IMG/VR virus record: IMGVR_UViG_3300023174_000084
Location: 32,001 to 96,000 of that record
Length of the DNA stretch: 64,000 nucleotides
Origin: a virus
Reading direction: 5' to 3' (one strand)
The number at the start of each line of letters is the position of its first letter. Within the stretch, counting starts at the first letter, position 1. The notes beneath the pieces are model-generated. The model did no database searches. It had not been told where the DNA came from and saw only the letters and a program-made list of their open reading frames with translations. Both the position numbers and the translations under genes were made by a program. Positions 605 to 50,509 of the stretch are shown one piece after another.

Positions 605-775
605 TTACCAAGATCCGTTATCAAACCATATTCGTATAGTGATAGGCAATAATTCTAAAACAAATGCATCTGTTTCCCAAACTTCATTTGTTTTATTATA
701 GGCACAGTTAATACGCCAGTGAAATGGATTTAATTTGATTGTAATATTACAACCAGAATATTTTAACCAATTCAT
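605..775 (-). CDS. hypothetical protein, 56 aa (MNWLKYSGCNITIKLNPFHW...WFDNGSW), not in ORF track
   Basis: Read manually; ATGA overlap with stop of upstream ORF; fills the gap exactly. Confidence 0.65.
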   Translation of the reverse strand: MNWLKYSGCNITIKLNPFHWRINCAYNKTNEVWETDAFVLELLPITIRIWFDNGSW

Positions 776-35115: not shown

Positions 35116-35118
35116 TTA

Positions 35119-36422
<1,304 letters not shown>

Positions 36423-36428
36423 AAAAAT

Positions 36429-37559
36429 TTAAATAGGTAATTGTTTTTTCAACCAATTTAATTCTGATCGATTTTCGTTTGATTGATACCAACCTTTACC
36501 TTCATAAACATTCAATACAGATTGAAAATATTCTTCATACATTTTACCAACTTTTTCTAATGTAAAGTTCTCAGCAAATTGCCTACAATTTTTAGGATCA
36601 ATTTTGTCAATATTTTTGGCTGCCCAAGTAAAATGTTCAAAAGTTCTGCATCGATATCCAGTAACACCATGAATATTGTTTTCAGTAAATGATCCCCAAT
36701 CTGTGGTAATCGTTGGAGTACCAGAAAATAATAATTCCATTTGCACACCACCAAAAGGTTCTGTATATAAAGATGCTACAAAAGCACCTTTTGCATTAGA
36801 CATTAATTTTCTTCGTGTTTCAACATCTGCATAACCTAGTTCGGTAACATGAGAAGGAGTTTCTTTATAACCCATTTGTTTTAAAGAATTTTGGCCAGCA
36901 ATAATTAATTTAGCACCAATTGCTTCGGTTGCCTGAACTGCAATATTAACACCTTTACCTTCATATACTCTACCTAAAAATAAAAAATAATCTTCTTTTT
37001 TATCATTAAAAGTAAAATCATCAGGATCAAAATAGTTTGGAATAACTATATCATACCAATCTTGTTTACAAGTACCAACAGATGATATGCCATAGTAAGC
37101 ATGATAGATGGCATACGATTCAAATATTTTCCATCGAGCCCAATGACCACCAGCATAACCAATTCCCGGTTCCACACAAATTAAATCTGGATGTGCATCA
37201 CAAATTGGCCTAACTCCTGAACCCCAAAATGGAAGAATAAAATCGTTTTTTCTTTTTCTTTTATCAACTTCTACAATTCCATTTTTATAAAAGGTTTGAT
37301 AAGCATGGTCTGCTGTATTAAACTTATAAAAGTTTTTTCGCCAATCGTAATTACCATAAGCAATTTCTAAATCTTTATTTGTTGTAATAGTAACATGTTC
37401 TGTGCATTGCAAATCGGAATCTTCATGGCCATAATGTATGACTTCGTGGCCAAGATTTGTCATCATCTTACCAAACTTAACAACCTTTTGTGTATATGCA
37501 CAAGCATTATATTCTTTAGAAGATACTGTATGTGGTAATCCTAAAATATGAAATCTCAC
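36429..37559 (-). CDS. GT-B (GT4-like) glycosyltransferase
   Basis: LGHEV.HY, IPNYFD, FLGR...KG, EPFGGVQME...GTP.ITTDWG...E. Confidence 0.9.
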   Translation of the reverse strand: MRFHILGLPHTVSSKEYNACAYTQKVVKFGKMMTNLGHEVIHYGHEDSDLQCTEHVTITTNKDLEIAYGNYDWRKNFYKFNTADHAYQTFYKNGIVEVDKRKRKNDFILPFWGSGVRPICDAHPDLICVEPGIGYAGGHWARWKIFESYAIYHAYYGISSVGTCKQDWYDIVIPNYFDPDDFTFNDKKEDYFLFLGRVYEGKGVNIAVQATEAIGAKLIIAGQNSLKQMGYKETPSHVTELGYADVETRRKLMSNAKGAFVASLYTEPFGGVQMELLFSGTPTITTDWGSFTENNIHGVTGYRCRTFEHFTWAAKNIDKIDPKNCRQFAENFTLEKVGKMYEEYFQSVLNVYEGKGWYQSNENRSELNWLKKQLPI

Positions 37560-38122
37560 TGTGTAAATACTCCGTAATATGCTCTACCATAACAACCAGA
37601 TTCAGATAGTGTTGTTATCATACCTCTAGCTCCAATCCATTCATTTAAATTCTTTTCTGTAAGTTCGTGTGGATGGCCATCATGTGCTGGTATATCAATC
37701 CATTCAAACAATCTTAATGTTGGTGCCGCTGCTTTGGCATTGGCAATAATTTTACCTGGATCTATTGCATGTTGCATACAATTATAAATCCAAACTTCAT
37801 CCCAACCTCTTTCTACAACCTCTTCACCAGGTTTAATATCAACATCTATATTATGAAAAGCATATCTCATTAATGTCCATTCAGGATATTCTATAGGATC
37901 AACAACTTTACCTTTTTTTAAGTTGATTGTTTTTAATAACATTGAAGTTGGACCACCACCAATATCTAAAATTGATTTATTAAAAACATTAAATGAATAA
38001 TGTTCTCTGTGTAATCCCATTAATTTACCATAGATGTAATGCTTTTGATCTTCATCAAATGTATTACAACAATTTCCCCAATAATCTTTTTCAAATTCAT
38101 AATCTTCCATAATTATACCCAT
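37556..38122 (-). CDS. class I SAM-dependent methyltransferase
   Basis: ILDIGGGP, VVDP, YNCMQH..DP. Confidence 0.8.
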   Translation of the reverse strand: MGIIMEDYEFEKDYWGNCCNTFDEDQKHYIYGKLMGLHREHYSFNVFNKSILDIGGGPTSMLLKTINLKKGKVVDPIEYPEWTLMRYAFHNIDVDIKPGEEVVERGWDEVWIYNCMQHAIDPGKIIANAKAAAPTLRLFEWIDIPAHDGHPHELTEKNLNEWIGARGMITTLSESGCYGRAYYGVFTQ

Positions 38123-38688
38123 TTAGGACCTTCAAACCAAACTGCAATAGAATATCTTGTACCTTTTGTTACTGGATGTGCTTGATGTGGAATAAAAGAT
38201 GGAATGAAAATTGCTGTACCTTGTTGACGAATTTCTTCTTTATTTGGATATTGGCCACAAGTTAAATCAAAAATTTCAAAATCACCACCTTCATATTCAT
38301 CTGGATCGGATAATTGAATAAGACAAGTTAATTTTCTGTGATATGAATCATTATTAATCCAGAATACATCATGATGTTTTTTATATTCTCCTTGATAAGA
38401 AGAATCATATTCAGCTAGTTGAATAAAAGATAGATTGGTAATATGAAAATTGAACCATTCACGGTTCGCTTGAATACCCATTTTCCAAATTTCTTCAAAA
38501 AGAAATTGAAAGTCTGGATCATTTGATTGAACAAAACGAACTTTACTTCTTCGCCAATTATTATCTAAAGTGTTACCATCAACACCTAATACAGCATCTT
38601 TAGAAGATTTTTTTAAACCTAAATCAAGAATTTTTTGGCAAGTTTCTTTTGAGAAATGCTTGCCAAAATAACACCATTCACCTTTCAT
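38113..38688 (-). CDS. 2OG-Fe(II) oxygenase, prolyl-hydroxylase-like
   Basis: RRS, HHD, RKLT..IQL, YEGGD, PSF.PH...PVTKGTRYS...W. Confidence 0.88.
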   Translation of the reverse strand: MKGEWCYFGKHFSKETCQKILDLGLKKSSKDAVLGVDGNTLDNNWRRSKVRFVQSNDPDFQFLFEEIWKMGIQANREWFNFHITNLSFIQLAEYDSSYQGEYKKHHDVFWINNDSYHRKLTCLIQLSDPDEYEGGDFEIFDLTCGQYPNKEEIRQQGTAIFIPSFIPHQAHPVTKGTRYSIAVWFEGPKWV

Positions 38689-38717: not shown

Positions 38718-38725
38718 TATTTATT
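38718..38725 (-). promoter_or_regulatory. late promoter AATAAATA
   Basis: Overlaps the stop of the 1690-aa fibre gene; heads the oxygenase-MTase-GT trio. Confidence 0.65.
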
Positions 38726-41700
38726 ATAAGTCCACTACAGTTCTGAGTAACTTAACTGTTGAAACAGCATTTGTTCCAGTAAACAACAACCGAACTGTTC
38801 CACCAGAAATATCAGCATCAAAAGTTCCTAAAGAAGAATTGGTTATTACTTCACCATACTGTGCTAAGAATACTGTTGTACCATTATGCACTAAATTCAG
38901 TTCAATAATATGATATTCTATTCCAGAAGAAATCTGCACAAAATATTTTGCTGAACGATAAGTGGTTGTTGGCCATGCATCAACAGAAATTTGTGAAGTG
39001 GACGATGTGGTAAATGTATTACTTGTTGTGTCTACTTCAGCCAAACTAATTGTAGTTGCACCAAGCGTTGTTACACCAGTCAACGAACCACTCATAGTGT
39101 CGCCAGACTTTAATACAGTAGAGAACGCTCTTGTGTTAGCTGTATTAGCTTGTATATAAGCAGAAGATGCAAAGTCATTAACTGCTATAATATTGGTATT
39201 CTGTGTTAAATCCACACCTTGTATAATGCTGATGGCTGAATTTTGTGCCAAATCCACACCTTCAATAATGGATATTCTAGTATTTTGTCCAGCATCAACA
39301 CCTTGAATAATCGTAATTGCACCTGCATTGGTGTTCGCTTGTACAAAAGCACCAGCAGCATAGTTATTAACTGCTGTAATATTAGTATTTTGTGTTAAAT
39401 CCACACCTTGAATAATAGCTATCGCATCAGCATTAGTATTTGCTTTATTAAATGCACCAGCAGCATAGTTATTAACTGCTGTAATATTAGTATTTTGAGT
39501 AAGGTCTACACCTTGAATAATACTAATAGCTGAGTTCTGTGCTAAATCAACACCTTCAATAATAGACATTCTAGTATTTTGACTGGTATTAACACCTTGT
39601 GCATATGTTAATATATTTGTTTGACCGGAATATACTGCATCCGCATAAACATTACCAGCAACACCAACACCACCAATAACTTGTAATGATCCTGTTGAGT
39701 TTGATGAACTTGGATTATTAGATTTAATTACTAAATTGTTAGCAGAAGTAAATCTAGCAACTTCATTCTCAGTATTAATTCCATTTACTGCAAATATAAT
39801 ATCATTTTGAAGTTGTGTTCCAAGTATTAAATCGCCACCACCTGTATTAGCTTTTCCAGAAACAAACAAATAACCATCGTTTGGTCCTAAAAGGCTAAAA
39901 CCTGGATAATTATAGTTACTACCTGCAAGACCTAAATCTAGATAACCATCTATAATTGATCCGTTGTCTGCGGTTATAAAATAATCACCAGAAGAATTTG
40001 CACCAGAATTAATATTTTGTATTTGGAGTGCAGCATAACCATCATAATCAGCAGCTAAATTCATTACTGTTTGTGGTTCAATGAGATAACCTGTTGGAAT
40101 ACCAGCATACAAAGCATTGAAACCATTAGCCGCATAACCAAAGAATTGGCCAGTATTACCTGTAACTTGCACAGAAGTAACATTACCTACAAATGAAACG
40201 TTACCATTGACAGTTAAATCGTTTGTAACAGTAACGGAACCAGTAATTGTGCCACCAGAAGAACTAAACTTACTGTTGGCGGCACTATAAGCACCAGCAG
40301 CCAGACCATTAGCACCGTTAGCAGTATTAAATGCTGACTGAGCAAAATTATTAACGGCAGTAATATTATTATTCTGTGTTAAATCCACACCTTGTATAAT
40401 GCTGATGGCACCAGCATTGGTGTTTGCTTGTGCATATGCAGAAGCCGCATAGTTGTTTACCGCTGTAATATTAGTTGCATTTGTGTTTGCTTGGTTATAA
40501 GCACCAGCAGCCAGACCATTAGCACCATTGGCTGTGTTATAAGCTGATTGAGCAAAATTATTAACGGCAGTAATATTGGTATTTTGAGTAAGGTCTACAC
40601 CTTGAATAATACTGATAGCTGAATTTTGTGCTAAATCCACACCTTGAATACCAGCAATTTGAGTATTCTGTGTTAAATCTACACCTTGAATAATACTGAT
40701 AGCTGAATTTTGTGCTAAATCCACACCTTGAATACCAGCAATTTGAGTATTCTGTGTTAAATCTACACCTTGAATTATTGAAATGTTACTGGCATTTGTA
40801 TTTGCTTGTGCATAAGCACCAGCAGCCAGACCATTAGCACCGTTAGCAGTATTAAATGCTGACTGAGTAAATTGATTTACAGCATTAGAAGAATCAAAAG
40901 CTGCATTTGCTTTATTATAAGCATTTCCAGCAATTATTTCTACTTGAGTTGTGTATGAATATGCTGTATTAGCTTGATTATAAGCAGAAGCAGCAAATTG
41001 GTTTACTTCTGTAATTCTGGTGTTCTGACCTAAATCTACACTTTGAATAATGCTAATAGTAGTATTTTGGTCACTATTAATGGTCTCAATAGAATTTAGA
41101 CGTGTATTTTGTGTGGCATCCACACCTTGTATAATTGTTATAACACCTGCATTGGTGTTTGCTTGGTTATAAGCACCAGCAGCCAATCCATTGGCACCAT
41201 TGGCAGTATTGAAAGCACCAGCAGCTAAACCATTGGCACCATTAGCAGTATTATAAGCTGACTGAGCAAAATTGTTAACCTCTGTAATTGTGGTATTTTG
41301 GCCTAAATTTACAGCTTGAATAATAGCAATAGAACCAGCATTTGTATTTGCTAAAGCAAAAGCAGAATTTACCCTACCTGTATCAGCAATTCTAAAGAAA
41401 TTTGTGCCATCATTAGTGAATTCCCACGCATGGTCTGTTTCACTCCATTTCAATACTGTGTTCGTTTCACTTCCACGATTAACTTCAATACCAGCATCAA
41501 GTGTTGGAACACCAGTTACATTTGAATTCAATGTAATGATGTTATCTTTAACATGTAATTGTTCTGTATTTGCGTAGAATGTTGTTCCAGTAACACTTAA
41601 ATTACCAGTAACATTTACATCACCAGAGATTGTTCCACCAGAAGAATTAAATTTACTATTGGCTGTGTTGTAAGCACTAGCAGCAAATTGATTTACTTCT

Positions 41701-43796
41701 GTAATTCTGGTGTTCTGACCTAAATCTACACCTTGTATGACAGCGATAGCACCAGCATTGGTGTTTGCTTGGTTATAAGCACCGGCAGCCAGACCGTTAG
41801 CACCATTGGCAGTATTATAAGCACTAGCGGCAAATTGATTTACTAAATTACTAGAATTATAGGCAGATTGTGCTAAAGCTCTTGCCACATTATCTGTTGC
41901 AGATCCGACTGATAGTGTGTTTGCAAAAGCAAAAGCAGCTTGAGCTATGCCAGTTCCAGTATTTGCTTGGTTATAAGCACCGGCAGCCAGACCATTAGCA
42001 CCGTTAGCAGTATTAAATGCCGATTGTGCAAATTGATTTACGGCATTAGATGAAGCAAAAGCGGCATTAGCTCTATCATAGGCATTATTTGCTTTATTTG
42101 AAATATCGCCTGTTGATGGTACACTTGAACCAGAAATAACAAAATCTGAAGCACCAGTTATAACTAATTGACCATTATTGTTACTTAAAACTATGTTATC
42201 AATATCAACAGAACCTGGACCAACATATAAACTATGCCAACGTTTAGTTGAACTTCCTAAGTATTGTGTATTGGTTATTGAAGGTAAAGCATTACCATAA
42301 AATATTGTGGATAAATCGTCATTAAATTGTATAACAACATTTGATTCTTCTTGTCCGCCAGCAACAATTTTGGTGTGTTGACCTGTAGTATCAGACAAGG
42401 TACCAATAATTAAATTGCCACCAACTTGACCTGTGTTACCTTGTACCAATAAAAAACCATCTAATGGATATAAAACACCATCTGATGCTTGAGAGTTTTG
42501 TATACCTAAATCAATATAAAATGTGGTGTCTGTACCAACATCTGCCGTTACAACAAAGTCTGCTGATCCATTTGGATCAATATTTTCAGCATTTATTTGA
42601 ACATAAGTTGCAGCATTACCAGTGAACTGTGCAATTAAATCCGGCAGAGGTGTGGAGAGTTGTGGAGAAATACCAGCATATAATTTATTACTTATATATG
42701 CATTGGATGTATTAGACCATTCTGTTGTATTGATCGAACCATTAATGATTAGATTGCCATTTAATGTTTGATTTCCTGAATTTTGTAATGAAGTATTTGC
42801 TTTATTAAATGCACCAGAAGCCAGACCATTAGCACCATTGGCTGTATTGAAAGCACCAGCAGCCAGTCCGTTTGCGCCATTTGCGGTGTTAAATGCTGAT
42901 TGGGCAAATTGATTTACGGGAGTAATGTTTGTTGCAACGTAAGATTGAGAGGCTATAGTTTCATCATTTTGTAAATCATCTGTGTATTCCCAAGTTTTGT
43001 TAGCTTCATTCCAATAAATTAAAACATTATTTGCTGTACCACGGTCGACTTCGATACCAGCATCAAATACTGGAGCTCCAACAGTATTTGCGTTTAGAGT
43101 TATAAAACTATCATCAACATTAATATTGGTAACATTTGCATAAAATGTTTGACCGGTTACTGTTAAGTTGCCAGTAACGGATACATCTCCTGAAATTGTT
43201 CCTCCAGAAGAATTAAATTTACTATTGGCAGTATTAAATGCTGACTGAGTAAATTGATTTACAGCTGTAATTGTGTTGTTCTGGCCTAAATTTACACCTT
43301 GAATAATTGCAATGGCAGTATTCTGGTCTACATTAACGGTCTCAATAGAATTTAATCTAGTGTTCTGAGTATTATCAACACTCTCAATGATAGACATCCG
43401 AGTGTTCTGGTCTTGATTGACTGTTTCGATAGAACCTAAACGGACGTTCTGTGTTAAGTTTACACCTTGAATAATGGAAATTGAGCCAGCATTAGTATTT
43501 GCTTGGTTATAAGCACCAGCAGCTAGACCATTAGCACCATTGGCTGTATTATAAGATGACTGAGTAAATTGATTTACAGCTGTAATTGTGTTGTTTTGAC
43601 TAGTGTTTATACCTTGAATAATGGATAAATTGGCATCAAACTGTGTTTTGTTGATGATATAATTACCACCGACCGTAACATTATCATGAACGGTAAGAGT
43701 TTTCTGATCGGTATCAACGGTAACTTCTCCAACTGCTCCCGTAAATACAGCAGTTTGTGCTGTATTACCTCTTCTAAGTTGTAATTGTGTGGCCAT
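38724..43796 (-). CDS. long repeat-rich tail fibre, Mtd-like N-terminal domain
   Basis: QLQLRRG....FTGA.GEVTVDTD; many IIQGVDLTQN and ANGANGLAAGA repeats. Confidence 0.8.
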   Translation of the reverse strand: MATQLQLRRGNTAQTAVFTGAVGEVTVDTDQKTLTVHDNVTVGGNYIINKTQFDANLSIIQGINTSQNNTITAVNQFTQSSYNTANGANGLAAGAYNQANTNAGSISIIQGVNLTQNVRLGSIETVNQDQNTRMSIIESVDNTQNTRLNSIETVNVDQNTAIAIIQGVNLGQNNTITAVNQFTQSAFNTANSKFNSSGGTISGDVSVTGNLTVTGQTFYANVTNINVDDSFITLNANTVGAPVFDAGIEVDRGTANNVLIYWNEANKTWEYTDDLQNDETIASQSYVATNITPVNQFAQSAFNTANGANGLAAGAFNTANGANGLASGAFNKANTSLQNSGNQTLNGNLIINGSINTTEWSNTSNAYISNKLYAGISPQLSTPLPDLIAQFTGNAATYVQINAENIDPNGSADFVVTADVGTDTTFYIDLGIQNSQASDGVLYPLDGFLLVQGNTGQVGGNLIIGTLSDTTGQHTKIVAGGQEESNVVIQFNDDLSTIFYGNALPSITNTQYLGSSTKRWHSLYVGPGSVDIDNIVLSNNNGQLVITGASDFVISGSSVPSTGDISNKANNAYDRANAAFASSNAVNQFAQSAFNTANGANGLAAGAYNQANTGTGIAQAAFAFANTLSVGSATDNVARALAQSAYNSSNLVNQFAASAYNTANGANGLAAGAYNQANTNAGAIAVIQGVDLGQNTRITEVNQFAASAYNTANSKFNSSGGTISGDVNVTGNLSVTGTTFYANTEQLHVKDNIITLNSNVTGVPTLDAGIEVNRGSETNTVLKWSETDHAWEFTNDGTNFFRIADTGRVNSAFALANTNAGSIAIIQAVNLGQNTTITEVNNFAQSAYNTANGANGLAAGAFNTANGANGLAAGAYNQANTNAGVITIIQGVDATQNTRLNSIETINSDQNTTISIIQSVDLGQNTRITEVNQFAASAYNQANTAYSYTTQVEIIAGNAYNKANAAFDSSNAVNQFTQSAFNTANGANGLAAGAYAQANTNASNISIIQGVDLTQNTQIAGIQGVDLAQNSAISIIQGVDLTQNTQIAGIQGVDLAQNSAISIIQGVDLTQNTNITAVNNFAQSAYNTANGANGLAAGAYNQANTNATNITAVNNYAASAYAQANTNAGAISIIQGVDLTQNNNITAVNNFAQSAFNTANGANGLAAGAYSAANSKFSSSGGTITGSVTVTNDLTVNGNVSFVGNVTSVQVTGNTGQFFGYAANGFNALYAGIPTGYLIEPQTVMNLAADYDGYAALQIQNINSGANSSGDYFITADNGSIIDGYLDLGLAGSNYNYPGFSLLGPNDGYLFVSGKANTGGGDLILGTQLQNDIIFAVNGINTENEVARFTSANNLVIKSNNPSSSNSTGSLQVIGGVGVAGNVYADAVYSGQTNILTYAQGVNTSQNTRMSIIEGVDLAQNSAISIIQGVDLTQNTNITAVNNYAAGAFNKANTNADAIAIIQGVDLTQNTNITAVNNYAAGAFVQANTNAGAITIIQGVDAGQNTRISIIEGVDLAQNSAISIIQGVDLTQNTNIIAVNDFASSAYIQANTANTRAFSTVLKSGDTMSGSLTGVTTLGATTISLAEVDTTSNTFTTSSTSQISVDAWPTTTYRSAKYFVQISSGIEYHIIELNLVHNGTTVFLAQYGEVITNSSLGTFDADISGGTVRLLFTGTNAVSTVKLLRTVVDL
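40594..40775. repeat. perfect 84-bp tandem duplication within the fibre gene
   Basis: IIQGVDLTQNTQIAGIQGVDLAQNSAIS unit repeated identically at DNA level. Confidence 0.85.
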
Positions 43797-43825: not shown

Positions 43826-43833
43826 TATTTATT
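43826..43833 (-). promoter_or_regulatory. late promoter AATAAATA
   Basis: Overlaps the upstream stop codon. Confidence 0.65.
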
Positions 43834-44902
43834 ACGCCAAGGATCCATAATCGAAAGAATCTGTAACTGGTTGATCATCAAAACCAGCATCAAAAATAAT
43901 TGTAACTGGTTGGCCAATATAACCCAAATCAGCAGAAGGAACATCAGGAATGTTTGATGACTGAGCGATTGCATTTCTAATAAATGTTACAGTTGTACCA
44001 TCTACGGAAGGCGTAAACAACAACCTTACATTATTTCCAACAATGTCTGATGAAAAACTTCCTAAAGAATTTAAAGAATATACTTCACCAAAAACTGAAG
44101 TAAAAGTGTTACTTCCACTTTGCAATATATTTAAATTTAATATGTGATACGATAAGCCAGATTCAATTTGTAATTGGTAGAAAGCACTTCTGTAAACTAA
44201 TTTGGAAAAAGAATCAATTGTAACCTGACTTGTTCCTGTAGCATTATAACTTTTTGATGATATATTTGAATTTGCCGTTACATCTAAAGATTTAACATTT
44301 AATACACCTGTACTCGGATTAAATGTTAAATTATTATTTGAGGTGAATAAAGTATTTGTGTTACCAGAAGTATTATTGGCAAAGTTAATATAGTAAACAT
44401 TATTTGAACTATTATCATTTACAATCTCTAAAGATCCACCAGATCCACTAGGTCCAGTTGGTCCAGTTGGTCCTGTGGCACCTTCAGATCCACTAGGTCC
44501 AGTTGGTCCTGTGGCACCTTGAGATCCACTAGGTCCAGTAGGTCCAGTAGGTCCAGTTGGTCCAGTTGGTCCAGTTGGTCCTGTGGCACCTGTTGTACTC
44601 GATGCAGTTGCATTAATTGTGATTGTTTTTGTTACGGTGCAGGCTGAAATGGTAATATTATTACCGGCTGCAATAGATAGAGTATCTGTTGGTGATGTTG
44701 CAAGAATTAACGAACTATTTGCGTTGATAGTTGCAAATGAGTCGGTTGTTGAACCACTTTGAATAAAAGTGATTGTATTATTAGAATTGCGATAATACAG
44801 TTTTCCATCAGCGTAGTTTAACGCCAACTCACCATATTCTAGTGAAGAAGGTACATTACCTGTTACGCCTGATTTTTTTACCTGTAATATTGTATTTGCC
44901 AT
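43832..44902 (-). CDS. fibre-associated protein with short collagen segment
   Basis: MANT.LQVKKS...GELALNY N-domain; GPT/GAT/GPS triplets; YRSA domain shared with the 1690-aa fibre. Confidence 0.75.
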
Positions 44903-44908
44903 CTACTT

Positions 44909-45484
44909 TTAAAAACTTCCGCCATCTTTCGTTATATCGTCTATTAAAGGTAAAACTGACGACTGATTTGTTATTTCTAAATCTTTATCTTTTTCTTCGT
45001 CTAATTTTTTACGCTTGGCAGGAGTTAATTGCAAATACTCAATTTGATCATTCAGTTTTTTAATTTTTAATTCATATTCATCATGAGTTTTTTTATGATT
45101 CTCACGTTCTTTATTTAATTCATTTCTAAAAGTGTCAAGATGATTTACTTGATGTTTAACATTTTCATATTCATTTTTTAAATTATTTAAGTCATTTAAC
45201 TGTTTTTCTAATTCACCAATTCTTTCTAAATGACCTCTAATAACATTTTCTAAGTTTAAAATTTTAGAATCAGACTCTTGATTTTTATTACTTTTAATCA
45301 ATTCCAATTCATTTTTTAAATTTTCAATAATTTTTTCAAATTCATTATTTTTTTTAACCTGTTCATTAATAACATCTTCAGTAACTCGTGCATTAGCTTG
45401 TAGAGATATATTCCTAATGACTGCATCTGTCATTGTACCGGTCAATACCTCTACATAATAATTCAAATATTTTTCATTTCCCAT
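44909..45484 (-). CDS. coiled-coil protein ending in DGGSF
   Basis: K/E/N/L heptads; AGGAG SD. Confidence 0.7.
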   Translation of the reverse strand: MGNEKYLNYYVEVLTGTMTDAVIRNISLQANARVTEDVINEQVKKNNEFEKIIENLKNELELIKSNKNQESDSKILNLENVIRGHLERIGELEKQLNDLNNLKNEYENVKHQVNHLDTFRNELNKERENHKKTHDEYELKIKKLNDQIEYLQLTPAKRKKLDEEKDKDLEITNQSSVLPLIDDITKDGGSF

Positions 45485-45522
45485 TTCAAACTCCTATTAT
45501 AAAAAAATTATATAGTCATGAA

Positions 45523-47643
45523 TTAAAACTGACCTCCATCTAATGCTGTTGTCCAAACTGGAACACCAGCATTAGTAACGGTTAATATCTGATTAGACCA
45601 AGTTTGATCCGCAATACCGGCCGCAGCTGTTACTCCTAAATTACCTGTTCCATTACCGTATGTAATACCGTTTTGTGTAATCGTGGATAGACCTGTACCA
45701 CCTTGTCCAACAGTTAATCCTGAAATTGCACCAACTGTAGCAGCAGTGAATCTTCCAAATCCATCAACAGTAATCGATGTAATTGTATTATTGGAAGTTA
45801 AAGTGCCTGTTTGAGTGTATGTGGTATTTGCTAATGAAGCAATTTTTGTGCCATCAAAATATGTAATTTGATTATTAGTAAATGATGTACCGTTAGTACC
45901 ACCACGATTTATTGGTAACGTACCTGAAGTAATTGCAGAAGCATCAATTGCAATAGATGTATTTGATACAGCAACAACACGGCCATATACATCAGTTGAA
46001 AATGCAGCAACAGAAGAGGCTGAACCAAAGGTTTGACCAACAGCAACACTAGAGTTAGCGATTTGTGTTAAACCATTTACACCAGAACCAATAACAATTT
46101 GGCCAGAAGTGAATGATGTTTTACCTGTACCACCATTTGGTACTGTGAGAGCATTGGTGAGTGTTAATGTGTTTGCAGTAATTGTATCAACTTGTAGGTC
46201 GTCAATTACAATATCACCAGTGACAACCAAATTACCAGTAACAGTTAAATTATCATCAATTGTTACTATGCCTGTTGAAGATGTAATCGTACCAGGTAGG
46301 TTTAATACACCATCGTCTCCAAATGTCCAAAAATGAGCATTGTTTGCACGAATGTATACTTCTTTTGTAGCATCACTTACTTGAACATTAGTTTGTTCAC
46401 CACCCAAATATAATTCAGCACTAGAGGCATCAATTGTACCACCAGCACGAACATGAATATGATTTGGTGCTGTTGGATCAAGAATGATGTATTGGTCATT
46501 GACACCTGGACCATAATTGACACTTGGTGCTAATAAGAGTGTGTTGTTGGTTGTGTCACCAAAAATACGGTTTGCAACATATATTGTATTGGCTTGAACC
46601 GTGTTACCAATTGTGTTGCCTTTAAAATATGCTGCATGAACATTGGCTTCACGATATGATGGGTCACTTAGGTTGATGTTATTGTTTGCATCAAGTTCAC
46701 CAGTATAACCTTGGAAGAAATGATATTCTTTTGTGCCGGCATCACGAATCAAACCTGTGTGAGCATTTGAACCATCATTGTAGTGTGAGGCAAAACCAAT
46801 ATCAAATGTGTCGGAGAAATAGTTTCCTGTACCTAAAAGAAGTAATGGATCTTCAATTTCAAATTGGTCAATGGCAAATGTTGTAGTATTACCAAATACA
46901 AATAAGTTACCTGTTACAGTTAAATCATTGTTTGCACCAATCGTCAATCCTGTATTAATTGTCTGTGTACCACCAGTAAATGCGTTAGCACGAACAACAG
47001 TATTATCAACATCAAAAGTTACTGTGTCGGTTGCACTTGCAACAGAAGTAATACCGGCACCACCAACGAGTGTTAGTGTGTCACCACCAGAAACGGTTTG
47101 TGATGCACCAGAATCGGCTGCAACAGTAAATGATGTAGAAATTGCTGCAGTTGTAACATTCATTACACGGCCGTTAGCGGCCACTTGAATGACTGGAATT
47201 GCCGTTGTGGATCCATAGGTACCAGCACCAAGACTAGGAACCGCATCGAGAGAAGCGTTAAGTATCACATCACCGGTACCATTAAAGGAAACAGCCGATG
47301 CGGTGATATCACCACCATCAATTGAGAAATTTCTAGAGTTCTCTAATTGAAGAGCAGCATTTGCGGTACCTTGAATAGTACCAATAATGTTTGCAGTAAT
47401 AAAGTTAAAGGATGCATTACCAGTTGCATCTCGTTTAACAATTGTTGAAGGAGTTGCTTGGCTCGTAGCATTATCAATTTGAGATGTATAATATTGACCA
47501 CCAACATTGACAACACCATTGCCAGTAGGAGAACCAATAAAAATAGTATTTGAAGCGTAAGAATATGCTAATTCACCAGCAAGTAATGATCCTGGTCTTC
47601 CAACTGAATTGGAACGTTTGATTAAAATGTTGGTATTTGCCAT
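45523..47643 (-). CDS. tail fibre/structural protein ending in DGGQF
   Basis: MANT.ILIKRS...GELAYS N-domain; GTYGS....P.I.V...GR and L.V..GGTG repeats. Confidence 0.75.
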   Translation of the reverse strand: MANTNILIKRSNSVGRPGSLLAGELAYSYASNTIFIGSPTGNGVVNVGGQYYTSQIDNATSQATPSTIVKRDATGNASFNFITANIIGTIQGTANAALQLENSRNFSIDGGDITASAVSFNGTGDVILNASLDAVPSLGAGTYGSTTAIPVIQVAANGRVMNVTTAAISTSFTVAADSGASQTVSGGDTLTLVGGAGITSVASATDTVTFDVDNTVVRANAFTGGTQTINTGLTIGANNDLTVTGNLFVFGNTTTFAIDQFEIEDPLLLLGTGNYFSDTFDIGFASHYNDGSNAHTGLIRDAGTKEYHFFQGYTGELDANNNINLSDPSYREANVHAAYFKGNTIGNTVQANTIYVANRIFGDTTNNTLLLAPSVNYGPGVNDQYIILDPTAPNHIHVRAGGTIDASSAELYLGGEQTNVQVSDATKEVYIRANNAHFWTFGDDGVLNLPGTITSSTGIVTIDDNLTVTGNLVVTGDIVIDDLQVDTITANTLTLTNALTVPNGGTGKTSFTSGQIVIGSGVNGLTQIANSSVAVGQTFGSASSVAAFSTDVYGRVVAVSNTSIAIDASAITSGTLPINRGGTNGTSFTNNQITYFDGTKIASLANTTYTQTGTLTSNNTITSITVDGFGRFTAATVGAISGLTVGQGGTGLSTITQNGITYGNGTGNLGVTAAAGIADQTWSNQILTVTNAGVPVWTTALDGGQF

Positions 47644-47688
47644 TTATTTTCTCTCTTTTATTATGTTTAATGTTTTACTACTTTGATC

Positions 47689-47696
47689 TATTTATT
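47689..47696 (-). promoter_or_regulatory. late promoter AATAAATA
   Basis: Overlaps the upstream stop codon. Confidence 0.65.
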
Positions 47697-47892
47697 AAAA
47701 TCTACCGCCGTCAATCAGATTAGGACTAACATTGGCAATAAAATTTGGTCCACCTATTTGTACAATCTGATTATTTGCTGTACCAATAAAAAGTGTATTG
47801 GAAACAAACGAGTACGCTAATTCACCATCATCTAACGATGTTGGTCTTGTGTTTGCATAAGAACGAAGTATTTGAATGACTGTATTTGCCAT
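47695..47892 (-). CDS. 65-aa protein: stand-alone fibre N-domain plus DGGRF tail
   Basis: MANTVIQILRS...GELAYSFVSNTLFIG...IDGGRF. Confidence 0.75.
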   Translation of the reverse strand: MANTVIQILRSYANTRPTSLDDGELAYSFVSNTLFIGTANNQIVQIGGPNFIANVSPNLIDGGRF

Positions 47893-48116
47893 TAAAAGAA
47901 TCCTGCATCTAGGTCTGGATTCAATTCTCCAATCGATTGAACCTTAAAACTATTAGTATTTGCTTGATAAGTTATAACATCACCATCTTGCACACCAGTT
48001 AAGGATAAGTCAGTAGAACCTTTGAGTGACCTTATACCATAATTTAACTGGCGAACAGTTTTATCTTGCTGTTTATTTACTTGAACATTGACTGTTCCAA
48101 TTACTTGTCCTGGCAT
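47892..48116 (-). CDS. small structural protein ending in DAGFF
   Basis: TAATG coupling; L.G..D.......DGD...Y......F pattern. Confidence 0.7.
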   Translation of the reverse strand: MPGQVIGTVNVQVNKQQDKTVRQLNYGIRSLKGSTDLSLTGVQDGDVITYQANTNSFKVQSIGELNPDLDAGFF

Positions 48117-48125: not shown

Positions 48126-48467
48126 TTAAAACTTGGTGACTTGAGGAATAACATTTACAATTCCTTCTAATACTCTAGTCACGGTGTTTGCAGTATCTTT
48201 AATTGCCACATCATATACATAACGACCAGCTGCAATATTAGCTGTTGTGTTGGGATTCAACAATAATAAAATGGTACCATCTGTTGGATTATTGATTGTT
48301 ACCACAAATTCAGCGGTTGTATTGGCTGAGTAATATGATTTACGAATTTGACTTTTAGCGATAACACCAGTTAGGTCAAAAGGCACTCCATTAATATCAT
48401 CAAGGGTGATATTAGTGGTAAATGTTGTTCCTTGTTCTAAAAATAACTCTTGATATGCTGCGGCCAT
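48126..48467 (-). CDS. small beta-sandwich fibre/baseplate adaptor-like protein
   Basis: QGTTF, PFDLTG, QIRKSY, GRYVYDV, RVLEG...V.P.VT. Confidence 0.7.
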   Translation of the reverse strand: MAAAYQELFLEQGTTFTTNITLDDINGVPFDLTGVIAKSQIRKSYYSANTTAEFVVTINNPTDGTILLLLNPNTTANIAAGRYVYDVAIKDTANTVTRVLEGIVNVIPQVTKF

Positions 48468-48514: not shown

Positions 48515-50509
48515 TTATTTGGACTTTTTTAGTTCATCAATCTCTAGTTTAAGTTCTTTGATGGCTTCAACTAAAAGAGGAATAACCCTTTCGTATTTAA
48601 TTGTTAAATATTGTTCATCAATTGGAGCTGGTACCACAACTTGTGGTAAAACTTTTTGTACCTCTTGAGCGGATAAACCAACCTCATCTTTTACTGCATA
48701 ACCTAAAGCTTGAGCTGTTTCATTTGGTTTGTAATGAAAACCATTTAAAGTCATTAACTTATTCAAAGCGTTTTCTATATTACCTAACTTTGTTTTTAAC
48801 CTATCATCTGAGAAATAACCAGAAATATCTCCTGTAGCACGAATTTCACCCGTGGTTCCTGAAGCAGCCGTACCAACACCTAAAGAACCAAACTGAACAG
48901 AAGCACCTGTGTTTATATTTTGTGGTAAAGATAAAGTTGGAGTGGTTGTTCCTGTTACAGTAATTTGATTCGTTGTACCAGTAATTGATGTCACTGGTGC
49001 GGTACCAGAGCTTAGTGCGGTTACACGACCATAAGCATCAATTGTCAAAGAAGCGTTCGTTGCTGAAGTTGCACCTGGACCAGCAGTTGCAAGATCAATT
49101 GTTGGAGTTAATCCACCAGAAGATGTGATACGACCTGATGTACCTGATACAGAACTTACACGGTTATTAGCGGTATTGTATGAACCTTGAGCTAAACCAT
49201 TAGCACCATTAGCCGTTGCATAAGCACCTCCAGCAAATTGATTGATATGGGTAATGCTGGTGTTCTGATTAGTATTAACGGTCTCAATAGAATTTAGACG
49301 TGTATTTTGTGTGGCATCTACACCTTGTATAATAGAAATGGCTGTATTTTGTGCAATATCTACTGTTTCAATAGAACCTAATCTGGTGTTTTGAGTTATA
49401 TCCACACCTTGTATAATACTGATTGCAGTATTTTGTGCAATATCTACTGTTTCGATACTATTCAACCTAGTATTCTGTGTATTATCCACACCTTGAATAA
49501 TACCAATACTGGTATTCTGATTGCTATTAATGGTCTCAATACTTTGAATACGAGTATTCTGTGTATTATCTACATTCTGTAAATAACTAACAGCTGCAGA
49601 TGTAGCTACATTTGTTGCATTTGGATTTGTTGTTGAACTACTGAGATACTCATCAGTTAATATGCGATAGTAAATACCACTAACCACATCATTCATATCA
49701 AAGTATGTGTTAGCTTCATTCCAACGAATTGCAGCATTGGCACCAGATAATCCACGATTTACTGTAAATGAACTGTTTAAACCTGATGCACTATTCGCAT
49801 TAATTGTAAAATTGTTTGTGTTATAAATGGTTGTACCAACAATAACAAAATTACCACCAACGGATAATTGTCCACCAACTGAAGCATTATTTGTTACACT
49901 TAAAGATGCCGTAGAAGTTGAGTTGAAAGCAGTTAAATCGGAAGCAGAAACATCTTCAATTGCTGTTAAATTTTTACTGACAAATACATTAGAAGAAAGC
50001 GTTGTATCACCAGAAACAGAAAGAGTATTACTAACTACTGTTACTCCAGATACAGATAAACTACTACTCAATGTTGTTGCACCAGTAACATTTAATGTTC
50101 CACCTACAGTTTCATTACCACCAACAGCTAAAGTGCCACCAATAGTTGTATTGTTTGCAACAGCCAAACCAGTACCAGAGCCCGAAGCGGTGATTCTTCC
50201 GTTAGAAATTAATTGACCAGAGTTGGTCAAACCTAATACGGTGTTTTGAAAGTATACTTGTGTGTCAACACGCAGATTGTTTTGAATATAAGCTGATGAA
50301 CCAATACCTTGTACCTGTAATTGACCAGCAATAATAGCATTGTTTGCAATCTGTAGACCTAAATTTGGATCATTAAGATATAATGTTCCAGTTGGTTTGA
50401 TATAGTTATTGGCCGCCAAGTCATTGTTTTCTTTTGCAAGATTATTTGTCGTAACGACCCAATCGCCAAATGTATTGGCATAGGTAAGATAATTAACTGT
50501 GTTGGCCAT
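48515..50509 (-). CDS. tail fibre with S74 intramolecular chaperone
   Basis: NTF.DW...TN N-terminus, IIQGVD repeats, YFSDDRLK, VGLSAQEV. Confidence 0.82.
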   Translation of the reverse strand: MANTVNYLTYANTFGDWVVTTNNLAKENNDLAANNYIKPTGTLYLNDPNLGLQIANNAIIAGQLQVQGIGSSAYIQNNLRVDTQVYFQNTVLGLTNSGQLISNGRITASGSGTGLAVANNTTIGGTLAVGGNETVGGTLNVTGATTLSSSLSVSGVTVVSNTLSVSGDTTLSSNVFVSKNLTAIEDVSASDLTAFNSTSTASLSVTNNASVGGQLSVGGNFVIVGTTIYNTNNFTINANSASGLNSSFTVNRGLSGANAAIRWNEANTYFDMNDVVSGIYYRILTDEYLSSSTTNPNATNVATSAAVSYLQNVDNTQNTRIQSIETINSNQNTSIGIIQGVDNTQNTRLNSIETVDIAQNTAISIIQGVDITQNTRLGSIETVDIAQNTAISIIQGVDATQNTRLNSIETVNTNQNTSITHINQFAGGAYATANGANGLAQGSYNTANNRVSSVSGTSGRITSSGGLTPTIDLATAGPGATSATNASLTIDAYGRVTALSSGTAPVTSITGTTNQITVTGTTTPTLSLPQNINTGASVQFGSLGVGTAASGTTGEIRATGDISGYFSDDRLKTKLGNIENALNKLMTLNGFHYKPNETAQALGYAVKDEVGLSAQEVQKVLPQVVVPAPIDEQYLTIKYERVIPLLVEAIKELKLEIDELKKSK

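What the first reader, a model, noticed from the sequence alone, without database searches (positions are those of the whole stretch)
43832..48116. Shared C-terminal DGGxF tag and shared N-terminal domain across consecutive fibre genes: a possible plug-and-socket assembly code
Seen: consecutive, otherwise unrelated proteins end in LDAGFF (74 aa), IDGGRF (65 aa), LDGGQF (706 aa), KDGGSF (191-aa coiled coil) and FDYGSLA (356 aa, which also has DLGYI and DAGFD copies just upstream). Three begin with the same ~45-aa domain MANT.(I/L).(I/V).(R/K)S...P.SL..GELA.....L(F/Y), and the 1690-aa fibre starts with a related Mtd-like domain. The 65-aa protein is essentially only this domain plus the tag. Inference: the terminal D-G-G-x-F peptide docks into the N-domain of another subunit, so fibres can be chained or branched, with the 65-aa protein as a minimal linker and the multi-tag protein as a branch point. 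Alternatively the tag is a chaperone or processing signal.
Basis: partly seen in the sequence, partly recalled or inferred. Interest (0 to 1): 0.75.

Follow-up and report, generated by a model that had tools for sequence, protein, structure and literature searches.

The report
Plug-and-socket joints linking phage fibre proteins
In this T4-like phage, each tail-fibre protein in a row of six ends in a tiny conserved peptide and the next one starts with a small cap domain, the same pairing seen where gp36 meets gp37 in phage T4, so the fibre is probably clipped together end to end from separate pieces by a reusable connector that has not been described as such.

Summary
Four consecutive proteins (74, 65, 706 and 191 aa) end in D-[G/A]-G-x-F. 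Three proteins (65, 706, 356 aa) start with one about 50-aa domain ("N1"), and the 1690-aa fibre starts with Mtd_N.

- In 80 related phage loci the tag occurs 191 times on the coding strand and never on the other strand.
- D, G and F are invariant while their codons vary.
- Every N1 gene follows a gene that ends in D-x-G-x-F. Every Mtd_N gene follows a gene that ends in D-Y-G-x-L, as the 356-aa protein here does.
- Natural fused versions lack both the tag and the N-domain.
- Whole genomes carry matching numbers of tags and N1 domains, even where the genes are unlinked.
- T4 gp36 ends in DFGYY and the gp37 N-terminus is an N1 domain; gp36 is known to bind that region. BPP-1 Bbp9 to Mtd follows the same rule.

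Best reading: a modular head-to-tail fibre joint. Direct binding is not shown. My only docking test was negative and inconclusive.

A membrane protein outside the window also carries the tag, which is unexplained.

This scan noted the same pattern in four other genomes. Two earlier follow-up reports also pointed to T4.

The parts
48126..48467 (-). 113-aa conserved protein directly upstream of the first plug-bearing gene. I used it as the anchor to collect related loci. It may be the attachment point for the 74-aa adaptor; that is inference.
   Evidence: It matches phrog_1084 (E 1e-25) and phrog_3304. It has 87 relatives in IMG/VR and hits in 140 phage records. It is always followed by a plug-bearing small protein.
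47892..48116 (-). 74-aa adaptor with a plug only. Plug residues D-A-G-F-F lie at 47895-47909. There is no N1 domain.
   Evidence: This is family 1: among 51 unique homologues D(-5), G(-3) and F(-1) are invariant. In L018 and in HTVC008M its N-terminal part is fused directly to a fibre shaft, without tag or socket.
47695..47892 (-). 65-aa connector made of an N1 socket (about residues 1-48, 47749-47892), a disordered tail and the plug D-G-G-R-F (47698-47712).
   Evidence: Alignment A1 of 43 sequences shows invariant D61, G63 and F65. The AlphaFold2 model has strands at 10-47 with pLDDT 84-90, and the tail at 51-65 is below 57. The gene is absent from simpler cassettes (Mosig, Melnitz, MED4-213, DC31, L077, L082).
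45523..47643 (-). 706-aa fibre with an N1 socket (residues 1-59, 47467-47643) and the plug D-G-G-Q-F (45526-45540), preceded by a conserved V-P-x-W motif.
   Evidence: The N1 profile scores E 1e-26. This is family 3: among 44 unique sequences G, G and F are invariant. The C-terminal 64 aa match P-HM1 and MED4-213 fibres.
44909..45484 (-). 191-aa coiled-coil protein with the plug D-G-G-S-F (44912-44926), a conserved about 40-aa N-terminus and a conserved L-Q-L-x-P-A-K-R-K-K motif. It has no N1 domain. It is either a link in the chain or an accessory or capping factor.
   Evidence: Only coiled-coil-type weak hits were found. This is family 4: among 40 unique sequences K-D-G-G-[ST]-F is invariant. 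The gene always follows a family-3 plug and precedes an N1 fibre.
43832..44902 (-). 356-aa collagen-like fibre with an N1 socket (residues 1-62, 44717-44902), a collagen repeat, an 87-aa end domain, and then a 44-aa extension carrying three D-x-G-aromatic/aliphatic copies that ends D-Y-G-S-L-A (43835-43939). This extension is the class-2 plug.
   Evidence: The N1 profile scores E 6e-27 and Pfam Collagen E 7e-8. The end domain is 43% identical to the C-terminus of the 1690-aa fibre, which lacks the extension. The class-2 plug always precedes Mtd_N genes.
38724..43796 (-). 1690-aa distal fibre with an Mtd_N socket (residues 6-38, 43683-43781) and no plug. It ends in the shared 87-aa domain and is the presumed receptor-binding end of the chain.
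   Evidence: Pfam PF18454 scores 40.2 bits against a cut-off of 26.3. A profile of this socket type hits the BPP-1 Mtd N-terminus at E 4e-24. It ends ...RTVVDL with no tag.

Best explanation
The cassette encodes a multi-segment tail fibre, or fibre set, whose separate proteins are joined head to tail by a reusable non-covalent connector.

The upstream protein ends in a flexible tail carrying a short plug, D-x-G-x-(F/Y/L/I) at or within two residues of the free C-terminus. The downstream protein begins with a roughly 45-60-aa beta-rich cap, presumably trimeric, that serves as the socket. The socket is either the N1 type (MANT..I..(K/R)S....P..L..GELA) or the Mtd_N type.

Plug classes match socket classes:
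- D-[G/A/S/M/N]-G-x-F pairs with N1.
- D-[Y/F]-G-x-[L/I/V] pairs with Mtd_N.
- E-D-L-N-x pairs with a second Mtd_N subtype.

Gene order gives assembly order, as with T4 genes 34-37. Here the order would be 74-aa adaptor (plug only, held on the particle by its own N-terminal part), then the 65-aa connector, the 706-aa fibre, possibly the 191-aa coiled coil, the 356-aa collagen-like fibre, and finally the 1690-aa distal fibre, which has no plug.

What is shown: the motifs, their conservation, adjacency, class matching, co-loss in fusions, matching counts across genomes, and homology of the socket to the T4 gp37 N-terminus and the BPP-1 Mtd N-terminus. What is inferred: that the plug physically contacts the socket, the trimeric stoichiometry, the linear order, and the role of the coiled-coil protein.
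For: 1. Conservation at the protein level. D(-5), G(-3) and F(-1) are invariant in 51, 44 and 40 unique members of three unrelated families, while the upstream sequence varies. Codons for these residues vary synonymously. The next start codon lies from -1 to 70 nt away.

2. Contingency over unique neighbouring gene pairs.
- D-x-G-x-F is followed by N1 in 118 pairs, by the coiled-coil N-terminus in 33, and by Mtd_N in 0.
- D-Y-G-x-L is followed by Mtd_N in 13 pairs, plus 1 that the regex missed, and by N1 in 0.
- E-D-L-N-x is followed by the second Mtd_N subtype in 3 pairs.
- Only 6 untagged genes precede N1, and all 6 carry variant tags such as SGGMF or DGGTFT.

3. Fused versus split forms.
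- The L018 1476-aa protein equals the L013 77-aa adaptor (residues 5-62) plus the L013 1365-aa shaft from about residue 52. It lacks both tag and N1.
- The L066 and L036 fusions equal the L030 64-aa protein plus the L030 908-aa protein, without the class-2 plug and without Mtd_N.

4. Whole-genome counts of N1 to D-x-G-x-F.
- ACG-2014f, S-CAM7 and S-SRM01: 1:1. The fibre gene lies about 100 kb from the plug gene and follows an untagged HNH gene.
- MED4-213, Mosig, Melnitz and DC31: 2:2.
- HTVC008M, where the adaptor is fused to the fibre: 0 N1.

5. Terminal fibres lack plugs. In the window the same 87-aa end domain occurs with the plug extension (356 aa) and without it (1690 aa).

6. The tag lies on a disordered tail and is not part of the fold.

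7. T4.
- Residues 6-51 of gp37 match the N1 profile (E 1e-12). This is the only N1 domain in T4.
- gp36 ends DFGYY, and 118 of 120 homologues end D-[FY]-G-x-[YF].

8. Podoviruses.
- BPP-1 Bbp9 ends ADLGGIA directly before mtd.
- S-TIP37 gp40 ends IDFGTL and CRP-3 gp31 ends FDFGSI, each directly before an Mtd_N gene.
- Mtd sits at the ends of the tail fibres (PMC2408619).

9. Independent sampling from MAG contigs shows the same rule.
Against: - No direct evidence of peptide-domain contact exists. A natural-frame read-through single chain (65 aa, an 18-aa linker, then the N-terminus of the 706-aa protein, with a paired alignment of 21 rows) gave pTM 0.30 and tag pLDDT of about 35. That test used a monomer, blocked the C-terminal carboxylate and had a shallow alignment, so it is inconclusive rather than negative.
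- No solved structure contains gp36 or the gp37 N-terminus, and none contains an N1 domain.
- In the canonical cassette there are four D-x-G-x-F plugs but only three N1 sockets. Either the plug of the 706-aa fibre binds the conserved N-terminus of the coiled-coil protein, which is not an N1 domain, or one plug has another role.
- A cytoplasmic-tailed membrane protein encoded between gp43 and UvsX also carries a conserved L-D-G-G-x-F. A purely structural virion joint does not predict this.
- The related loci are phylogenetically non-independent, so the counts overstate the number of independent events.
Confidence: 0.65

Rival explanations
1. The tag is a recognition signal for a shared assembly factor (a chaperone, a capping or timing factor, or a processing enzyme) and not a structural joint. 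Proteins that need this factor carry the tag, and the association with the next gene's N-domain reflects co-regulated assembly.
For: The same tag sits on a non-virion-like membrane protein, conserved down to 47% identity, and on a coiled-coil protein reminiscent of fibre chaperones or fibritin. There are four plugs for three N1 sockets. The tag is disordered, like many short linear recognition motifs.
Against: - No candidate reader protein (PDZ-like domain, protease) was seen in the cassette.
- Different tag classes track different N-domain classes of the next gene.
- Fusions lose tag and N-domain together.
- Tag and N1 counts match 1:1 even when the genes are unlinked.
- T4 gp36 is a stable virion component bound to the gp37 N-terminus.
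Confidence: 0.12
2. The plug mediates attachment, but not to the N-domain of the next protein. It might insert into a baseplate or adaptor protein, for example the 113-aa protein or the DUF4815 giant protein, or bind elsewhere on the next fibre. The N-domains would be ordinary trimerisation caps.
For: Weak fold matches of the N1 model are to trimerisation domains: collagen XV/XVIII (Z 3.5-3.6), the Mtd N-terminus (Z 3.1) and the HylP1 N-terminus. The 113-aa protein always precedes the first plug gene.
Against: - Plugs occur on proteins far down the chain and, in cyanomyoviruses, exactly once per N1 fibre.
- The plug class co-varies with the socket class, not with baseplate genes.
- Fused forms drop precisely the plug plus the N-domain.
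- In T4 the mapped partner of gp36 is the N-terminal region of gp37.
Confidence: 0.1
3. Tag and N-domain are independent 'end caps' that act within their own protein. One would be a C-terminal registration or fold-stop element and the other an N-terminal trimerisation cap. Their co-occurrence follows only from conserved synteny.
For: Both are lost when two proteins are fused, since no free ends need capping. The N1 model resembles known trimerisation units.
Against: - Distal fibres have free C-termini but no tag.
- The first adaptor has a free N-terminus but no N1.
- The same 87-aa end domain occurs with and without the plug, depending on whether another fibre gene follows.
- The tag is disordered in the model.
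- Class matching and 1:1 counts in unlinked genes are not predicted.
Confidence: 0.07
4. The conservation is at the nucleotide level. The D-G-G codons (GAY GGN GGN) would act as a Shine-Dalgarno or translational-coupling element for the next gene.
For: In family 4 the next start codon is 4-6 nt after the stop and G(-3) is always GGA. In family 1 the genes overlap or abut.
Against: - The D, G and F codons vary synonymously while the amino acids stay invariant.
- In families 2 and 3 the next start is 32-70 nt away.
- The terminal F is unexplained by this reading.
- The tag is kept where the socket gene is about 100 kb away.
Confidence: 0.01

Closest known systems
Phage T4 long tail fibre, distal half: junction of the gp36 trimer with the N-terminal region of gp37 (genes 36 and 37)
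   Same: - The upstream gene product ends in D-F-G-Y-Y, which fits D-x-G-x-aromatic at the free C-terminus and is conserved in 118 of 120 homologues.
- Residues 6-51 of the downstream gp37 are an N1 domain by the profile built from this window's family (E 1e-12).
- The two genes are adjacent (8-nt gap), and gene order equals order in the fibre.
- gp36 is reported to bind the gp37 N-terminal region (PMC3004832).
   Different: - None of the plug-bearing proteins here is homologous to the gp36 body (no PF03903 hit).
- T4 uses the joint once. Here it is used four to five times in a row.
- This cassette also has a 65-aa protein made only of socket plus plug, a coiled-coil link, and a switch to a second plug/socket class.
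- T4 literature in the searchable library does not describe the peptide motif. Pfam's gp36 model stops before it (residues 56-195).
Bordetella phage BPP-1: Mtd (major tropism determinant) mounted on the tail fibre
   Same: - The socket of the 1690-aa fibre is a bona fide Mtd_N domain (Pfam E 3e-10; profile against 1YU0 E 4e-24).
- The BPP-1 gene upstream of mtd (bbp9, putative tail fibre) ends A-D-L-G-G-I-A. This is the same plug class as the 356-aa protein here.
- Mtd trimers sit at the ends of the tail fibres (PMC2408619).
   Different: - BPP-1 is a podovirus with a single joint, and its distal protein is a C-type-lectin-fold receptor binder diversified by a retroelement.
- No DGR elements were seen here.
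- The partner of the Mtd N-terminal domain is not described in the papers I read.
Adaptor-based branched or chained receptor-binding complexes (for example the bead-chain neck fibre gp82-gp81-gp80 of cyanophage A-1(L), and adenovirus fibre-tail peptide docking to penton base)
   Same: Separate fibre proteins encoded by consecutive genes assemble into one appendage (A-1(L), PMC10966104). From general knowledge, not tested here: a short terminal peptide docking into a partner oligomer, as in adenovirus.
   Different: No sequence or fold relationship was found. In adenovirus the docking peptide is N-terminal. The A-1(L) joints have not been linked to a C-terminal D-x-G-x-hydrophobic motif.

Membership tests
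T4 gp36-gp37-type fibre joint | The downstream protein begins with a domain homologous to the gp37 N-terminal region. | tested here: met
   The profile of the window's N1 family (A2) hits T4 gp37 residues 6-51 (36.2 bits, E 1e-12; E 9.5e-11 per genome, the only hit in T4). The same profile hits the 65-, 706- and 356-aa proteins at E about 1e-26.
T4 gp36-gp37-type fibre joint | The upstream protein ends in the conserved gp36 C-terminal motif D-[FY]-G-x-[YF]. | tested here: met
   gp36 ends DFGYY, and 118 of 120 homologues keep the motif. The window proteins end DAGFF, DGGRF, DGGQF and DGGSF. They share D(-5), G(-3) and an aromatic at -1; position -4 differs.
T4 gp36-gp37-type fibre joint | The upstream protein is homologous to the gp36 body (Pfam PF03903). 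| tested here: not met
   There is no PF03903 hit for the 74-, 65-, 706-, 191- or 356-aa proteins at E up to 1. Only the terminal motif is shared, so these proteins are not gp36 family members, although the joint looks like the same kind.
T4 gp36-gp37-type fibre joint | Physical binding of the upstream C-terminus to the downstream N-terminal region. | tested here: inconclusive
   The single-chain AlphaFold2 construct did not dock (pTM 0.30). No multimer prediction or experiment is available here. For T4, binding of gp36 to the gp37 N-terminal region is reported at protein level only.
Mtd_N (Pfam PF18454) | Score above the Pfam gathering threshold at the N-terminus. | tested here: met
   For the 1690-aa fibre only: 40.2 bits against a cut-off of 26.3, residues 6-38. 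A profile of this type hits Mtd 1YU0 at E 4e-24.
Mtd_N (Pfam PF18454) | Membership of the MANT-type (N1) domains of the 65-, 706- and 356-aa proteins. | tested here: inconclusive
   No Pfam hit at E up to 1. hhalign of N1 against the Mtd_N type gives probability 2.9% and E 0.016. The VIA match of the N1 model to 1yu0_A residues 5-49 has Z 3.1 and rmsd 2.7 A over 42 residues. The layout is similar, but homology is not shown.
Collagen-like phage fibre (Pfam PF01391) | Gly-X-Y triple-helix repeat above threshold. | tested here: met
   356-aa protein, residues 105-156: 32.5 bits against a cut-off of 27.2.
Fibres with a Peptidase_S74 intramolecular chaperone | C-terminal S74 domain. | tested here: not met
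   S74 is present only in the 664-aa fibre (48515-50509) and in the two collagen fibres at 33865-36378. None of the plug- or socket-bearing proteins has it.
C-terminal peptide signals read by PDZ-type or protease domains (for example the OMP Y-x-F signal, or C-terminal processing signals) | Presence of a cognate reader domain and processing of the tag. | not testable with these tools
   No PDZ or protease family was detected in the neighbouring genes I scanned. Processing cannot be assessed from sequence.

The most novel reading that the evidence does not exclude
A general connector code for tailed phages that could be read from sequence. A free C-terminal D-x-G-x-hydrophobic peptide, in several specificity classes and sometimes in two or three tandem copies, would insert into the N-terminal cap trimer (N1 or Mtd_N) of the next fibre protein. 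This would determine which fibre modules join, in myoviruses (T4, cyanophages, pelagiphages) and podoviruses (BPP-1, T7-like cyanophages) alike. Minimal socket-plus-plug proteins would act as insertable links. Tandem plugs would recruit more than one distal trimer; BPP-1 is reported to carry two Mtd trimers per fibre. A plug-bearing inner-membrane protein would tether or time fibre assembly in the cell.
Probability: 0.3. Interest if true: 0.85.

Novelty: new variant of a known kind. Interest (0 to 1): 0.68.

Why it matters
Multi-protein tail fibres decide which bacteria a phage can attack. How their pieces recognise each other is known only coarsely, even in T4. No atomic structure of the gp36-gp37 joint is in the PDB copy searched.

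A five-residue plug and a roughly 50-residue socket that can be read from sequence would have three uses:
- Fibre architecture and partner assignment could be predicted in the many uncultured marine and freshwater phages. The N1 socket alone has 13,522 cluster representatives.
- It would explain how fibre modules are shuffled, split, fused or lengthened during evolution.
- It would make the T4 joint directly testable by point mutation.

Neither element is captured by Pfam or NCBIfam. The motif strings are absent from the searchable literature.

Tried and rejected
- DNA-level search of the region against phage records found only collagen-repeat matches.
- tblastn with the 74-aa protein found nothing.
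- Sequence searches of the PDB with the 706-aa protein and with the N1 profile gave nothing meaningful. The only hits were repeat-driven matches to designed 'Cake' propellers. The 356-aa protein hit only collagens.
- Foldseek with the 65-aa model gave no hit at E below 0.001. VIA wide search gave only Z of 3.6 or less.
- The single-chain read-through AlphaFold2 construct showed no docking and is inconclusive. A first attempt at its alignment was discarded because MAFFT stacked both N1 domains on top of each other.
- hhalign of N1 against the Mtd_N type was not significant.
- The Shine-Dalgarno or translational-coupling explanation was rejected on codon variation and spacing.
- Chance was rejected.
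- A loosened DNA pattern for D-x-G-x-[FY]-stop has as many control hits as real ones, so it was not used for counting. Of its three hits in HTVC008M, only one lies at a real ORF end. That ORF looks like a portal protein and ends EDDGQF.
I redid it with the narrower A6 alignment.
- Literature searches for the motif or for a described C-terminal fibre tag found nothing.

Full report
**Context.**
The window lies in a 115,580-bp single-contig genome (window = bases 32001-96000). GC content is about 35% and all genes in this region are on the minus strand.

It is a T4-like phage. It has gp8-like and wedge proteins, gp13/14 neck protein and gp15. Outside the window it has gp43, UvsX and gp41. The nearest isolates by protein are pelagimyophages and cyanomyophages of the Kyanoviridae.

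The gene row between gp8 and gp13 runs as follows:
- DUF4815 giant protein, 2089 aa
- a 79-aa coiled coil
- a 664-aa fibre with an S74 domain
- a 113-aa protein (phrog_1084)
- then proteins of 74, 65, 706, 191, 356 and 1690 aa
- then a 2OG-Fe(II) oxygenase, a methyltransferase and a glycosyltransferase
- then two collagen fibres with S74 domains.

In the whole genome only five ORFs of 561 end in [DN][GA]G.F: the four consecutive ones, plus a 307-aa membrane protein outside the window. A broader pattern adds only the 356-aa protein and one 56-aa ORF that is probably chance. From the amino-acid composition about 0.008 such ends are expected in 150 genes (P about 2e-13 for five).

A profile of the shared N-terminal domain, here called N1, finds the 65-, 706- and 356-aa proteins and nothing else in the genome. 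The 1690-aa fibre starts with Pfam Mtd_N.

**Conservation.**
I used the 113-aa upstream protein as an anchor and fetched 80 related IMG/VR loci. The strict tag occurs 191 times among coding-strand ORFs and 0 times among 3677 ORFs on the other strand.

About 50 loci with enough downstream sequence show one canonical cassette:
1. an adaptor of 74 or 177 aa with a tag
2. a 61-78-aa protein with N1 plus a tag
3. a fibre of about 600 aa with N1 plus a tag
4. a coiled coil of 146-251 aa with a tag
5. an N1 fibre of variable length without that tag
6. often an Mtd_N fibre.

In three of the four tagged families D(-5), G(-3) and F(-1) are invariant, over 51, 44 and 40 unique sequences. Residues just upstream vary. 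Positions -2, -4 and -6 are family-specific. Variants elsewhere include DEGFF, DMGFF, DSGFF, DNGFF, SGGMF, NGGTF and DGGNFS.

The D, G and F codons vary synonymously. The next start codon lies between -1 and 70 nt away. A ribosome-binding-site artefact is therefore excluded.

**The tag goes with the next gene's N-terminal domain.**
Over unique neighbouring gene pairs:
- D-x-G-x-F ends are followed by an N1 gene in 118 pairs, by the conserved coiled-coil N-terminus in 33, and never by Mtd_N.
- A second end type, D-[YFCM]-G-x-[LVIA] with up to two more residues, is followed by Mtd_N in 13 pairs plus one missed by the regex, and never by N1.
- A third end type, E-D-L-N-x, is followed by a distinct Mtd_N subtype (MPKTLQLRRG...) in 3 pairs.
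- Only 6 untagged genes precede N1 genes, against 492 untagged pairs elsewhere. All six carry variant tags.

The second type is what the 356-aa protein carries (F-D-Y-G-S-L-A) directly before the 1690-aa Mtd_N fibre. It occurs on unrelated carrier proteins: N1 fibres of 163-999 aa, small proteins of 64 and 88 aa, and a 598-aa protein. It comes as two or three tandem D-x-G-aromatic/aliphatic copies about 12 residues apart.

Fibres not followed by another fibre gene end without any such motif.

The window holds its own internal control. The 356-aa protein (residues 226-312) and the 1690-aa fibre share an 87-aa end domain (43% identity, E 3e-22). The domain is the very C-terminus of the 1690-aa protein. 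In the 356-aa protein it is followed by the 44-aa plug extension.

**Fused versus split forms.**
- In locus L018 a 1476-aa protein aligns with the L013 77-aa adaptor over residues 5-62. It then runs straight into the shaft repeats, which in the L013 1365-aa fibre begin only after its N1 domain. The tail with its tag and the N1 domain are both missing.
- Independently, the L066 and L036 fusions equal the L030 64-aa protein plus the L030 908-aa fibre, minus the class-2 plug and minus Mtd_N.
- Pelagibacter phage HTVC008M also has the adaptor fused to a 1020-aa fibre, and its genome has no N1 domain at all.

Both elements are therefore dispensable exactly when the two proteins are covalently joined.

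**Whole-genome bookkeeping.**
The N1 profile and a DNA pattern for the tag give these counts of N1 to tag:
- 1:1 in Synechococcus phages ACG-2014f, S-CAM7 and S-SRM01
- 2:2 in MED4-213, Mosig, Melnitz-1 and Limnohabitans phage DC31.

In the three Synechococcus phages the single tag sits on an 85- or 213-aa protein next to gp13. The single N1 domain heads a giant fibre gene (3973 and 4172 aa in two of them, 619 aa in S-SRM01) that lies about 100 kb away, behind an untagged HNH-like gene. The pairing is therefore not a by-product of adjacency.

Independent sampling through an N1 sub-profile in bacterial MAG assemblies gave four more contigs with the same rule: a small protein ending INGG[QNT][YF], then an N1 fibre ending [DS]GGT[YF], then an N1 protein.

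**Link to experimentally studied phages.**
T4:
- T4 gp37 residues 6-51 match the N1 profile (E 1e-12). This is the only N1 domain in T4.
- The gene immediately upstream, gp36, ends in D-F-G-Y-Y. Of 120 gp36 homologues, 118 end in D-[FY]-G-x-[YF].
- The Pfam gp36 model covers only residues 56-195, and the first 200 residues of gp37 have no Pfam family.
- No PDB entry contains gp36 or the gp37 N-terminus.
- A 2026 preprint models the distal rod only at low resolution.

BPP-1 and other podoviruses:
- The Mtd_N-type socket matches the N-terminus of Bordetella phage BPP-1 Mtd (1YU0, E 4e-24).
- The BPP-1 gene upstream of mtd, bbp9 (putative tail fibre), ends A-D-L-G-G-I-A.
- In the T7-like cyanophage S-TIP37 and in roseophage CRP-3, the fibre genes upstream of Mtd_N genes end I-D-F-G-T-L and F-D-F-G-S-I.
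- Mtd trimers are reported to sit at the ends of the tail fibres, two per fibre (PMC2408619).

**Structure.**
AlphaFold2 of the 65-aa protein, with a 43-sequence alignment, gives a four-stranded domain at residues 10-47 (pLDDT 84-90). The tail at residues 51-65 is disordered, and the tag scores below 50. This is consistent with a short linear motif that binds in trans.

Fold searches gave only weak matches:
- collagen XV/XVIII trimerisation domains (Z 3.5-3.6)
- Mtd residues 5-49 (Z 3.1, rmsd 2.7 A over 42 residues)
- the HylP1 N-terminus.

Profile-profile comparison of N1 with the Mtd_N type is not significant, so I do not claim homology between the two socket types.

To test docking with the one-chain tool I used a natural feature. 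The 65- and 706-aa genes lie in the same frame, separated only by TAA stops. Reading TAA as Gly gave a single chain made of the 65-aa protein, an 18-aa linker and the first 90 aa of the 706-aa fibre. Twenty other loci supplied a naturally paired alignment. The model was poor (pTM 0.30) and the tag stayed at a pLDDT of about 35. The construct is a monomer, its carboxylate is blocked and its alignment is shallow, so the result is uninformative.

**Interpretation.**
The best-supported reading is a modular, non-covalent head-to-tail joint: a plug at the C-terminus of one fibre protein and a socket cap at the N-terminus of the next. Plug and socket come in matching classes, and gene order mirrors assembly order, as in T4 genes 34-37.

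In this window the chain would be 74 aa, 65 aa, 706 aa, possibly 191 aa, 356 aa and 1690 aa. The last has no plug and ends in the domain presumed to bind the receptor.

The 65-aa protein is an optional extra link. Simpler relatives plug the adaptor directly into the fibre.

**What remains open.**
- Physical contact between plug and socket.
- Stoichiometry.
- Whether the coiled-coil protein is a structural link, with its conserved N-terminus acting as a fourth kind of socket, or an accessory or capping factor. In Mosig and MED4-213 a small coiled-coil gene sits at the same position without a proper tag.
- Whether tandem plugs create branches.
- The membrane protein. A protein encoded between gp43 and UvsX ends in L-D-G-G-x-F in about a dozen distinct homologues, down to 47% identity. 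Other homologues stop just before the tag. The plug therefore has at least one use outside the fibre cassette. This keeps a chaperone, tethering or timing role alive for some tags.

**Novelty.**
- The joint as such is known from T4, and by implication from BPP-1.
- I did not find any of the following described: the sequence-level connector; its several cognate classes; its serial reuse four to five times in one cassette; the minimal socket-plus-plug protein; its reach across myoviruses and podoviruses.
- The motif strings give zero hits.
- The N1 socket is large and unnamed. It has 13,522 cluster representatives at E below 1e-3, and the match is always at the N-terminus. Of the top 150, 19 end in the class-1 plug and 11 in the class-2 plug.

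**Earlier notes from this scan.**
Notes seen after I had reached the T4 link record the same pattern in four other genomes, and two follow-up reports also name T4 gp36-gp37. They agree with this report but are not independent evidence.

**Limits.**
- The related loci are phylogenetically linked, so counts are not independent events.
- The tag count in isolate genomes used a pattern restricted to G or A at position -4.
- No multimer prediction was available.

Noticed in passing
L083:4396-5319 (-), = genome 24396-25319, 6.7 kb before the window start: A 307-aa protein with several predicted membrane helices, a coiled coil and a basic tail is encoded between gp43 DNA polymerase and UvsX. It ends in ELDGGKF. 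L-[DN]-G-G-x-F is kept in about 12 distinct homologues down to 47% identity, despite indels just upstream. Other homologues stop right before it (...AFREKENK). The Mosig homologue lacks it. Its function is unknown; it might tether or time fibre assembly.
   Followed up: partly
window 43835-43939 (-), and L004-L082 homologues: Class-2 plugs come as two or three tandem copies about 12 residues apart (D-L-G-[FWY]-[VI] ... F-D-A-G-F-D ... [FY]-D-Y-G-x-[LV]). Class-3 plugs come as a tandem S-G-[ST]-E-D-L-N pair. Class-1 plugs are single. BPP-1, whose Bbp9 ends NIGLADLGGIA, is reported to carry two Mtd trimers per fibre (PMC2408619). A link between copy number and branching is speculation.
   Followed up: partly
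window 43967-44227 (-) and 38730-38990 (-): The 356-aa and 1690-aa fibres share an 87-aa C-terminal domain (43% identity, E 3e-22). The L013 1365-aa fibre also has it. No Pfam family covers it. It is presumably the distal or receptor-binding end domain.
   Followed up: partly
window 44909-45484 (-): Besides the plug, the coiled-coil protein family has a strongly conserved roughly 40-aa N-terminus (MGNEKYLNYY...), a conserved central block, and a nearly invariant L-Q-L-x-P-A-K-R-K-K motif about 35 residues before the end.
   Followed up: no
window 45523-47643 (-), residues 560-612: The N1 profile also reports a weak internal match in the 706-aa fibre (profile positions 2-55). This could be an internal N1-like repeat or noise.
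   Followed up: no
L177:1-1077 (+) (Pelagibacter phage HTVC008M, 69900-70976): An ORF that looks like the portal protein ends in an acidic tail...EGEDDGQF, which fits D-x-G-x-F. It may be coincidence.
   Followed up: no
L187:1910-2929 (+) (Pseudomonas jumbo phage PS119XW gp169): Here an Mtd_N-like segment is internal, at about residue 205 of a 339-aa tail protein, and the upstream gene has no plug. This may be another fused form.
   Followed up: no
window 36429-38688 (-): Genes for a 2OG-Fe(II) oxygenase-like protein, a methyltransferase-like protein and a glycosyltransferase-like protein sit between the 1690-aa fibre and two collagen-like S74 fibres (33865-36378). My reading rests on the translations; the S74 and collagen domains come.
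   Followed up: no
window 605-775 (-): A 56-aa ORF ends in FDNGSW. It is the only other match to the broad end pattern in the genome and is probably chance.
   Followed up: no
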